Below are positions 15,419 through 17,134 of a stretch of 64,000 bases of DNA, in pieces. Under the pieces are notes generated by a model, which was given only the letters and a program-made list of their open reading frames with translations, was not told the DNA's origin and ran no database searches. Position numbers and translations under genes: made by a program. Source of the DNA: Octopus vulgaris (lineage: Eukaryota); the NCBI GenBank assembly GCA_951406725.2, contig OX597827.1, positions 49,476,001 through 49,540,000 on the forward strand, written 5' to 3'. The number at the start of each line of letters is the position of its first letter. The first letter of the stretch is position 1.

Positions 15419-15496
15419 AAATGCATACCTCGGTTTCGGTCTTAACAAAAGAATTACTTGCATAATTCAAGTGTCCGTGACTTCTTCAGTACATTC
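15419..15496 (-). ncRNA. Type I hammerhead ribozyme motif, unit 1
   Basis: Reverse complement of the 17679-17756 motif. Confidence 0.8.
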
Positions 15497-15964
15497 GGTC
15501 CTCGAGATGCAAACCGCAAGACTAACCCCAGCTCTCTGTGTCAAGACAGACACGTGCTTAGTCTTACTGATTACATCGGGAATAAAATTTCAAATGTCTT
15601 GGTTCCGGCGCGCTAAGAGACTCCTGAAGCGAAGGGCTGCAGTGAATAATTCACTGCGGGTAAAGCTTACTACTAGGGAACGTATTTATTTAAATATTTA
15701 AAAATTGAGGGAGATAAATTAATATTAATTTTAATATCAATTTAAAACCAGTAGTCCAGCATTCAAAAAATCTGAGGAGTCAGAGAAAATTCAAATATAT
15801 GTGTATATTGGCAGGGCTGGCCTGCTAGGTAGCCGGCCAGAATGCTAGAAATAGATCATCAACGATCAAACTACAAGGGAAATTCTCTAGAGGAAGAATT
15901 CAGCGAACACCAGAACCAAATTTGGCGGGCAGGACATATGAAAAATTAAATAAAAAACAGACTT

Positions 15965-16042
15965 AAATGCATACCTCGGTTTCGGTCTTAACAAAAGAAT
16001 TACTTGCATAATTCAAGTGTCCGTGACTTCTTCAGTACATTC
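15965..16042 (-). ncRNA. Type I hammerhead ribozyme motif, unit 2
   Basis: Same motif, 546 bp further on. Confidence 0.8.
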
Positions 16043-16510
16043 GGTCCTCGAGATGCAAACCGCAAGACTAACCCCAGCTCTCTGTGTCAAGACAGACACG
16101 TGCTTAGACTTACTGATTACATCGGGAATAAAATTTCAAATGTCTTGGTTCCGGCGCGCTAAGAGACTCCTGAAGCGAAGGGCTGCAGTGAATAATTCAC
16201 TGCGGGTAAAGCTTACTACTAGGGAACGTATTTATTTAAATATTTAAAAATTGAGGGAGATAAATTAATATTAATTTTAATATCAATTTAAAACCAGTAG
16301 TCCAGCATTCAAAAAATCTGAGGAGTCAGAGAAAATTCAAATATATGTGTATATTGGCAGGGCTGGCCTGCTAGGTAGCCGGCCAGAATGCTAGAAATAG
16401 ATCATCAACGATCAAACTACAAGGGAAATTCTCTAGAGGAAGAATTCAGCGAACACCAGAACCAAATTTGGCGGGCAGGACATATGAAAAATTAAATAAA
16501 AAACAGACTT

Positions 16511-16588
16511 AAATGCATACCTCGGTTTCGGTCTTAACAAAAGAATTACTTGCATAATTCAAGTGTCCGTGACTTCTTCAGTACATTC
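16511..16588 (-). ncRNA. Type I hammerhead ribozyme motif, unit 3
   Basis: Same motif, 1092 bp further on. Confidence 0.8.
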
Positions 16589-17056
16589 GGTCCTCGAGAT
16601 GCAAACCGCAAGACTAACCCCAGCTCTCTGTGTCAAGACAGACACGTGCTTAGTCTTACTGATTACATCGGGAATAAAATTTCAAATGTCTTGGTTCCGG
16701 CGCGCTAAGAGACTCCTGAAGCGAAGGGCTGCAGTGAATAATTCACTGCGGGTAAAGCTTACTACTAGGGAACGTATTTATTTAAATATTTAAAAATTGA
16801 GGGAGATAAATTAATATTAATTTTAATATCAATTTAAAACCAGTAGTCCAGCATTCAAAAAATCTGAGGAGTCAGAGAAAATTCAAATATATGTGTATAT
16901 TGGCAGGGCTGGCCTGCTAGGTAGCCGGCCAGAATGCTAGAAATAGATCATCAACGATCAAACTACAAGGGAAATTCTCTAGAGGAAGAATTCAGCGAAC
17001 ACCAGAACCAAATTTGGCGGGCAGGACATATGAAAAATTAAATAAAAAACAGACTT

Positions 17057-17134
17057 AAATGCATACCTCGGTTTCGGTCTTAACAAAAGAATTACTTGCA
17101 TAATTCAAGTGTCCGTGACTTCTTCAGTACATTC
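17057..17134 (-). ncRNA. Type I hammerhead ribozyme motif, unit 4
   Basis: Same motif, 1638 bp further on. Confidence 0.8.

What the first reader, a model, noticed from the sequence alone, without database searches (positions are those of the whole stretch)
15419..17134. Four tandem hammerheads lie in sense orientation within the FAM184A-like pre-mRNA intron
Seen: the host gene is on the minus strand (intron 1450-28960), and so are the four tandem ribozymes. Inference: host Pol II transcription alone could release 546-nt monomers with no element promoter. It would also cut the nascent intron co-transcriptionally, which could affect host splicing or expression. The adjacent inverted unit could form a ~550-bp duplex with any unit, blocking ribozyme folding and providing an ADAR substrate. 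Established: coleoid cephalopods show very extensive A-to-I editing.
Basis: inference. Interest (0 to 1): 0.7.

Follow-up and report, generated by a model that had tools for sequence, protein, structure and literature searches.

The report
Retrozyme passenger in octopus FAM184A intron
Four real hammerhead-ribozyme motifs lie in the sense strand of a spliced FAM184A intron, but they belong to one young copy of a jumping repeat with hundreds of copies in this genome, are predicted to cut slowly, and likely leave the host gene almost unaffected.

Summary
Observation confirmed. The host is FAM184A-like, and intron 1450-28960 is spliced as stated. Four type I hammerheads lie sense to the pre-mRNA and a fifth antisense. 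The motif is non-random (0 of 20,000 shuffles) and has compensatory changes in three helices across subfamilies. The array is one young insertion (6 differences in 2,669 nt) of a 546-bp non-LTR retrozyme with 404 hammerhead matches genome-wide. Its copies show a Penelope-type footprint: (TA)n targets, two fixed 3' ends and head-to-head arms (89 of 132 loci). Interpretation partly supported. Monomer release by host read-through is geometrically possible. However, the active fold is a minority conformer, the inverted arm blocks only one hammerhead at a time, 165 of 167 family arms run through the cut site, and copies carry no A-to-G excess. Published intronic hammerheads did not stop splicing. 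An effect on FAM184A is likely small. New and unexplained: arm 5' ends pile up 105 nt upstream of the cut (14 of 222, p 2e-9). The scan already noted the same two-armed architecture and sense-intronic hammerheads in sister families elsewhere in this genome.

The parts
58396..58521 (-). FAM184A-like exon
   Evidence: tblastn of P0001/P0002, splice scan
32109..32259 (-). FAM184A-like exon
29549..29761 (-). FAM184A-like exon (query that found P0001 and P0002)
28961..29114 (-). FAM184A-like exon upstream of the host intron
1450..28960 (-). Host intron, 27,511 nt, GT...AG
   Evidence: spliced junction in RNA-like contigs of X1 and X6
1322..1449 (-). FAM184A-like exon downstream of the host intron
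14229..15150 (.). (TA)n microsatellite, inferred target abutting the element's 3' end (site A)
   Evidence: 116 of 124 site-A ends in the family abut TA-rich DNA
15151..17263 (-). Tandem arm: 3.87 copies of the 546-bp retrozyme unit (unit positions q72-546, then three full units)
17058..17133 (-). Hammerhead 1 (helix I span), predicted cut after 17064; first to be covered by the inverted arm (270-bp duplex)
16512..16587 (-). Hammerhead 2, predicted cut after 16518; inside the 555-bp duplex in the minimum-energy fold
15966..16041 (-). Hammerhead 3, predicted cut after 15972; free of the inverted arm in the predicted fold
15420..15495 (-). Hammerhead 4, predicted cut after 15426; free of the inverted arm in the predicted fold
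15426..15971 (-). 546-nt monomer that cuts 3 and 4 would release (predicted)
   Evidence: inference
17264..17819 (+). Inverted (head-to-head) arm, q331-546 then q1-341; antisense in the pre-mRNA and transcribed before the tandem arm; 3 substitutions and a 1-nt deletion
17680..17755 (+). Fifth hammerhead, antisense to the host transcript, predicted cut after 17749
15506..15577 (-). Long hairpin of the unit (q120-191); the family's 5'-end hotspot q167 (window 15530, also 16076, 16622, 17168) lies in its internal loop
17820..18490 (+). Older repeat (best 39 other copies 85-88% identical), read as the 3' end of a Penelope-type GIY-YIG ORF by recalled motifs; joined to the arm with about 2 nt of microhomology, no (TA)n; right boundary approximate
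   Evidence: Pfam found nothing in its 79-aa open piece

Best explanation
The four sense hammerheads are the repeat units of one recent insertion of a 546-bp non-coding retrozyme, likely pasted into a (TA)n tract of the FAM184A intron by a Penelope-like element's enzyme, and they likely cut too slowly to matter for the host mRNA. Shown: family of hundreds of copies; fixed 3' ends at two sites (q~544 and q~448) abutting (TA)n; head-to-head arms; compensatory changes that preserve the ribozyme helices; spliced host junction. Inferred mechanism: a Penelope RT/GIY-YIG protein nicks both strands of (TA)n and primes two cDNAs internally on uncut or circular retrozyme RNA. It copies through the ribozyme site for up to ~4 units, and the two cDNAs are joined 5' to 5'. 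In the pre-mRNA the inverted arm emerges first and would sequester hammerhead 1, or hammerhead 2 after refolding. Hammerheads 3 and 4 could cleave slowly, probably as a double hammerhead through the palindromic helix III, and release some 546-nt monomer, mostly from the excised or late intron. The cut sites lie 14.0-15.6 kb before the acceptor, about 4-5 min at a mammalian Pol II rate (scaled from PMC10919898). The duplex is probably edited like any inverted repeat.
For: 404 matches to the hammerhead pattern, 164 to a 22-mer of the youngest subfamily, 386 to the 3' segment, controls 0. 89 of 132 loci have head-to-head arms. Of 234 arms, 124 end at site A and 81 at site B; 199 of 234 abut TA-rich DNA. 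165 of 167 arms that reach the cut site pass it; 34 of 234 cross it twice or more. 18 of 137 locus-private variants testable in both orientations occur in every copy at their locus, as expected of one template. Helix I pair A-U/U-A/C-G, helix II U-A to C-G, outer stem C-G to A-U; 98.4% of cells paired, 0/500 shuffles, slid controls 30-42% (relatedness inflates the shuffle test). The only common core variant is the free position N7. A young Penelope family (781-aa RT+GIY-YIG ORF with a CX4CX2C linker) ends at (TA)n with a similar T-run/AAAT end in the 11 of 12 copies whose end was printed. Weak predicted fold. One-at-a-time blocking. Spliced junction.
Against: No DNA similarity between the unit and any of 42 GIY-YIG-bearing stretches and flanks beyond AT-rich bits, so the partner is a candidate only. 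This copy's right end lacks (TA)n and ends at q341, not at site A or B. Covariation shows the ribozyme is under selection in the family, so it probably does cut in some context. A mussel retrozyme lacking the usual tertiary contacts still cut at ~0.1/min in vitro (PMC7229834), which would be fast enough to cut a fair fraction within 4-5 min. This locus is one of only 2 of 132 with four same-strand hammerheads, so it is among the best placed to be a source. 116 of the 137 private variants are in one copy only (post-insertion change or RT error). Folding programs ignore tertiary contacts and protein help.
Confidence: 0.78

Rival explanations
1. Host-powered source gene: this sense-intronic array is an active donor. 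Host Pol II read-through plus double-hammerhead cleavage yields 546-nt circles that feed further retrotransposition, and the family needs no promoter of its own.
For: Sense orientation in an expressed intron. Two to three hammerheads free of the arm. Ribozyme under selection. No promoter recognised by eye. Run X1 holds contigs of 375 and 221 nt covering most of the unit, the longer running 65 nt past the cut site, compatible with uncut or re-ligated RNA.
Against: The copy is very young (6 differences in 2,669 nt), more like a daughter than a master. The X1 contig lacks the arm's private changes, has no strand, and can come from any of hundreds of loci or from DNA. The q167 hotspot may be an internal start site.
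Confidence: 0.2
2. Regulatory or deleterious intronic ribozyme (CPEB3-like): cleavage before the next exon is reached lowers FAM184A splicing, tuned by ADAR editing of the duplex.
For: Four sites multiply the chance of a cut. The window before the acceptor is minutes long. A CPEB3 precedent exists (PMC10919898 passages). Squid editing outside neurons targets repeats in introns and UTRs (PMC9068888 passages).
Against: Young multicopy insertion. Hammerhead-cut introns were spliced, whereas fast HDV ribozymes blocked splicing (PMC2995048 passages on Dye 2006 and Fong 2009; originals not read). Spliced junction present in RNA-like contigs, though the animals' genotype at this locus is unknown. No A>G excess in genomic copies: 14 A>G vs 33 T>C private, 44 vs 66 including rare shared; expected A share 0.40.
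Confidence: 0.08
3. The array grew at the DNA level (unequal crossover or slippage) or is an assembly artefact, rather than being written in one reverse-transcription event.
For: Tandem units are nearly identical; satellite-like growth is proposed for retrozymes (bioRxiv 2026.07.22.740005 discussion).
Against: Arms start at fixed TA-abutting sites and stop at arbitrary 5' points. Multi-unit arms occur in both orientations at other loci, e.g. L103 with 1,806 + 995 nt sharing rare variants. Units here differ by private single changes.
Confidence: 0.1

Closest known systems
Metazoan non-LTR retrozymes (Cervera and de la Pena 2020, PMC7229834, parts 2-3 of 6 read; Li, Clavereau and Pollet 2026, bioRxiv 10.64898/2026.07.22.740005, parts 1-3 of 5 read, supplements closed)
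   Same: Non-coding tandem units, each with a type I hammerhead; dispersed multicopy family; coexisting with Penelope-like elements; about 42-44% of Xenopus copies are intronic.
   Different: Unit of 546 bp exceeds the 150-450 bp of the 2020 paper (within the 51-972 bp of the 2026 preprint). Two-armed head-to-head insertions from two fixed start sites in (TA)n are not described in the parts read. Circular RNA not shown here; no pLTR homologue found.
Penelope-like elements and their minimal hammerheads (PMC4209133 parts 1-2 of 4; PMC8557442 passages; PMC11167929 parts 1-2 of 4)
   Same: Extra A after the CUGANGA box, long bulged helix II, small palindromic helix III suited to dimers. Inverted 5'-truncated copy, optional 3' tail between two RT start sites, (TA)n bias. 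The anole enzyme cuts and extends both strands, starts internally and uses unprocessed RNA.
   Different: No ORF. The two start sites are ~98 nt apart rather than 30-40. Helix I is 6-7 bp with an outer stem, closer to canonical motifs.
Domesticated intronic ribozymes: CPEB3 (PMC10919898 passages), RECK-type amniote hammerheads (PMC6155905 passages)
   Same: Self-cleaving motif sense within a long intron, kilobases before the next exon.
   Different: Those are single-copy and conserved across species; this is a young copy of a dispersed transposon.

Membership tests
Type I hammerhead ribozyme | Core CUGANGA, GAAA and NUH triplet | tested here: met
   CUGAAGA, GAAA, GUA in all five copies; 0 of 20,000 shuffles
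Type I hammerhead ribozyme | Helices I and II supported by covariation | tested here: met
   One pair with a change on both sides in each of helix I, helix II and the outer stem, 19 sequences chosen to span subfamilies
Type I hammerhead ribozyme | G10.1-C11.1 closing pair of helix II | tested here: inconclusive
   Covariation favours the register that leaves A opposite C next to the core; the alternative (extra A, G-C pair, 1-nt bulge) matches Penelope-type variants in PMC4209133
Type I hammerhead ribozyme | Stable helix III as a monomer | tested here: not met
   Pair probability <=0.01; palindromic, homoduplex -6.6 kcal/mol, so dimer-type
Type I hammerhead ribozyme | Match to a curated Rfam hammerhead model | tested here: not met
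   No hit at gathering or at E<=10; the long helix II may explain this (inference)
Type I hammerhead ribozyme | Loop 1-loop 2 tertiary contact | not tested
   Internal loops in helices I and II are placed for it; not modelled
Type I hammerhead ribozyme | Self-cleavage | not testable with these tools
   Only contigs available; no pile-up of arm ends at the cut site (4 of 222, expected 2.9)
Non-LTR retrozyme | Tandem units each holding a type I hammerhead | tested here: met
Non-LTR retrozyme | No protein coding | tested here: met
   Six-frame translation of two units: no stop-free frame beyond about 100 codons
Non-LTR retrozyme | Dispersed multicopy family | tested here: met
   404, 386 and 164 exact pattern matches
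Non-LTR retrozyme | Expressed as circular RNA | not testable with these tools
   Contigs in RNA-like run X1 cover the unit but show no strand or ends
Non-LTR retrozyme | Homology to a Penelope pLTR | tested here: inconclusive
   None by blastn in 42 GIY-YIG-bearing stretches and flanks, a small part of 6,136 candidates
Penelope-type insertion footprint | Inverted 5'-truncated copy, two fixed 3' ends, (TA)n target | tested here: met
   89 of 132 loci; 205 of 234 arms at two sites; 199 of 234 TA-flanked
Domesticated intronic ribozyme (CPEB3/RECK type) | Single-copy, old and conserved at the locus | tested here: not met
   Multicopy family; 6 differences in 2,669 nt at this copy; orthologous sites in other species not available
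Domesticated intronic ribozyme (CPEB3/RECK type) | Cleavage alters host mRNA level | not testable with these tools
   Needs allele-specific or blocking experiments

The most novel reading that the evidence does not exclude
Octopus retrozymes are promoter-less parasites of host introns. Long sense-oriented arrays such as this one are transcribed by host Pol II and cut by double hammerheads into 546-nt circles. A Penelope enzyme then copies one circle from both strands of a (TA)n break, and the inverted arm produced by that integration acts as a built-in, ADAR-tunable brake on one ribozyme of the new copy. A conserved hairpin 105 nt upstream of the cut sets where copying most often ends.
Probability: 0.18. 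Interest if true: 0.68.

Novelty: new member of a known kind. Interest (0 to 1): 0.36.

Why it matters
As a FAM184A regulator it probably does not matter. As a family record it gives countable genomic evidence on how non-coding ribozyme repeats are mobilised by Penelope-type enzymes: two fixed internal start sites, both target strands primed, copying through the ribozyme site, ribozyme structure under selection. It also makes a long-standing question testable in an animal with heavy RNA editing: whether sense-strand intronic hammerheads are selected against, tolerated, or used as the source of retrozyme circles. Two searches of the held library listed no paper on octopus retrozymes. Most subscription journals are not covered, and unseen supplements of PMC7229834 and the 2026 preprint may list cephalopod cases.

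Tried and rejected
Rfam found no ribozyme. A second ribozyme class at q167 (HDV-, hatchet-, pistol-like or another hammerhead register) was considered by eye and rejected; an alternative type III fold cutting at q185 had pair probability 0.0. A capped start at q167 is disfavoured: the end is a U and 0 of 10 exact junctions have an extra G (the cap-derived G rule is recalled). A Penelope ORF 1.4 kb from a family copy (L081) proved a chance neighbour, since 11 sister copies lack the unit. A 20-nt homology between the arm's end and the flanking old repeat was rejected after comparing 11 other copies; only about 2 nt are shared. A fossil editing signal was absent, and every difference listed for the RNA-like run X1 also occurs in a DNA-like run. 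No run is on record as RNA, so nothing is concluded on expression level. Lack of intron cover is not used as evidence. Presence or absence of the insertion in other animals could not be read, because both sides of the junction are repeats. Pfam on single exons found nothing. Orientation bias of intronic copies was not tested for lack of annotation. PMC3365414 passages added nothing. Rows dropped: L195 (near-duplicate of L194); 12 arms with 5' end at q1 (chaining artefact); variants within 8 nt of piece ends, in the TA-like stretches, or in pieces under 93% identity. L152 holds a duplicated insertion counted twice. 92 of the 133 loci were picked by full-unit or hammerhead-core match, which favours arms crossing the cut; in the 40 tail-picked loci 31 of 65 arms cross it, 1 ends at it and 3 end at q165-168.

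Full report
Observation. The host is FAM184A-like. Exon 29549-29761(-) matches P0001 (Pfam FAM184, E 1e-23) at 100% and O. bimaculoides FAM184A (P0002) at 89%. Five exons map on the minus strand, and both proteins run straight from the exon ending at 28961 into the exon starting at 1449. Contigs from three RNA-like runs of three studies cover exon 1321-1451. The loose end printed for two of them is the upstream exon. So the 27,511-nt intron is real. Within it, 15151-17263 holds 3.87 tandem copies of a 546-bp unit on the minus strand, each with a type I hammerhead. 17264-17819 is a head-to-head inverted arm with a fifth hammerhead on plus. The motif appears in 0 of 20,000 shuffles. Rfam does not detect it.

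The ribozyme. Core CUGAAGA/GAAA/GUA; helix I of 6-7 bp plus an outer stem; a long bulged helix II capped by a GNRA loop; an extra A after the first box; a tiny palindromic helix III. These traits match the Penelope-type variants of PMC4209133 (parts 1-2 of 4 read), which need dimers and cut poorly in vitro. An older subfamily (about 83-90% identical) keeps the same architecture. In 19 sequences chosen to span subfamilies, helix I, helix II and the outer stem each have a pair changed on both sides, and 98.4% of cells pair (the shuffle control ignores relatedness). The only common core variant is the free N7. The family's ribozyme is therefore under selection. Yet the active fold is a minority state in context: helix I 0.13-0.34, base of helix II 0.03-0.06, monomeric helix III <=0.01. 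It costs about 3 kcal/mol as a monomer and 6-9 as a double hammerhead. Published rates for retrozymes range from ~0.8/min (coral) and ~0.1/min (mussel) to poor monomers but efficient dimers (axolotl) (PMC7229834, parts 2-3 of 6). One of 9 Xenopus dimers cleaved (bioRxiv 2026.07.22.740005, parts 1-3 of 5).

The family. Exact patterns give 404 hammerheads, 386 3' segments and 164 youngest-subfamily cores, with controls at 0. I analysed 132 loci (133 less one near-duplicate; 92 picked by unit or core match, 41 by the 3' segment). 89 have head-to-head arms. Of 234 arms, 124 end at q>=535 and 81 at q438-456, and 199 abut TA-rich DNA. Of 167 arms long enough to reach the predicted cut, 165 pass it, and 34 of 234 cross it at least twice. 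5' ends are not enriched at the cut (4 of 222, expected 2.9). The templates were therefore uncut multimers or circles. 18 of 137 locus-private variants testable in both orientations are in every copy at their locus, and 116 are in one copy; this fits one template plus later change. The footprint matches Penelope elements: inverted truncated copy, tail, (TA)n bias (PMC8557442 passages), and an enzyme that cuts and extends both strands, starts internally at two sites and uses unprocessed RNA (PMC11167929, parts 1-2 of 4). A young autonomous family with a 781-aa RT+GIY-YIG ORF also ends at (TA)n with a similar end. It shares no detectable DNA with the unit, so it is a candidate partner only. The term twin priming is recalled from LINE-1 work.

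This copy. It differs from the reference unit by 5 substitutions and 1 deletion in 2,669 nt, so it is very young. It is one of 2 of 132 loci with four same-strand hammerheads. Its right end is atypical: the arm stops at q341 on an older repeat read as a Penelope 3' fragment, with about 2 nt of microhomology.

Effect on the host. In the pre-mRNA the inverted arm comes first. Folding of growing transcripts pairs it with hammerhead 1 (270 bp), then at equilibrium with hammerhead 2 (555 bp); only one is blocked at a time. Hammerheads 3 and 4 could release the monomer 15971-15426. The cuts lie 14.0-15.6 kb before the acceptor, about 4-5 min at the mammalian rate quoted in PMC10919898 (passages); the octopus rate is unknown. 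A rate near 0.1/min would cut a fair fraction in time. However, hammerhead-cut introns were spliced in mammalian cells while a fast HDV ribozyme blocked splicing (PMC2995048 passages describing Dye 2006 and Fong 2009, not read directly). Editing of the duplex is plausible and ordinary, since non-neural squid editing targets repeats in introns and UTRs (PMC9068888 passages) and two thirds of this family's loci carry such arms. Genomic copies show no A-to-G excess (14 vs 33 and 44 vs 66, expected share 0.40). Run X1 holds contigs of the unit, one running 65 nt past the cut, without strand or locus information.

Unexplained. 14 of 222 arm 5' ends fall at q165-168 (expected 1.6, p 2e-9), 10 of them exactly at a U in the internal loop of the unit's longest hairpin. 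Four of these arms had already passed the site once. My odds: RT stall 45%, internal start site 35%, nuclease end 20%.

Earlier notes. After my own analysis, the scan's notes showed the same two-armed, TA-targeted architecture in 353-360 and 485-495-nt families, and sense-intronic hammerheads in several other genes of this genome. These are unchecked AI notes; none matched this unit by sequence.

Verdict. Observation confirmed; interpretation partly supported. A new member of a known kind (non-LTR retrozyme, probably Penelope-dependent), likely a passenger in FAM184A. Interest 0.36.

Noticed in passing
window 15530 (unit q167; also 16076, 16622, 17168): Sharp family-wide hotspot of arm 5' ends in the internal loop of the q120-191 hairpin, 105 nt upstream of the hammerhead cut (14 of 222 arms). 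RT stall, start site or nuclease end; unresolved.
   Followed up: partly
L082:906-4587+ to ~5700, L084:768-4468+, L083, L085-L092: Young autonomous Penelope-like family with many intact 781-aa RT+GIY-YIG frames, an overlapping upstream frame of up to 479 aa, CCAAT/CRE/TATA-like motifs in the terminal repeat (read by eye), a degenerate hammerhead with a U3-A8 core, and (TA)n targets with an optional ~33-nt tail.
   Followed up: partly
window 17820-18490 (+): Decayed 3' end of an older, abundant repeat (2,887 first-look candidates), read as a Penelope GIY-YIG C-terminus by recalled motifs; the retrozyme arm is joined directly to it.
   Followed up: partly
window ~13300-14230 (+): Decayed 3' end of a LINE-like element (RT C-terminal motifs read by eye) ending in an (AATC)n tail directly before the (TA)n tract.
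   Followed up: no
window 15685-15690, 16231-16236, 16777-16782 (-): Each tandem junction carries AATAAA in sense just past 3' site A, kept in some older copies; 21 such hexamers occur in the intron, so not distinctive.
   Followed up: partly
L242, L256, L257, L258, L260, L263: An older subfamily lacks one C at the base of helix II, leaving about two pairs there, yet recurs at several loci.
   Followed up: no
132-locus set: Private variants show a strand asymmetry C>A 28 vs G>T 8 (p 0.002, one of six tests) on the ribozyme strand; possibly an RT error or damage bias.
   Followed up: no
L152; L194 and L195; L240 and L241: Whole insertions with flanks are duplicated locally or about 0.3 Mb apart, i.e. 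spread also by segmental duplication.
   Followed up: no
window 4792-5995, 8161-8960, 9630-10552, 14229-15151: Four (TA)n tracts of 0.8-1.2 kb in the same intron are self-complementary and offer other long duplexes and further insertion targets.
   Followed up: no
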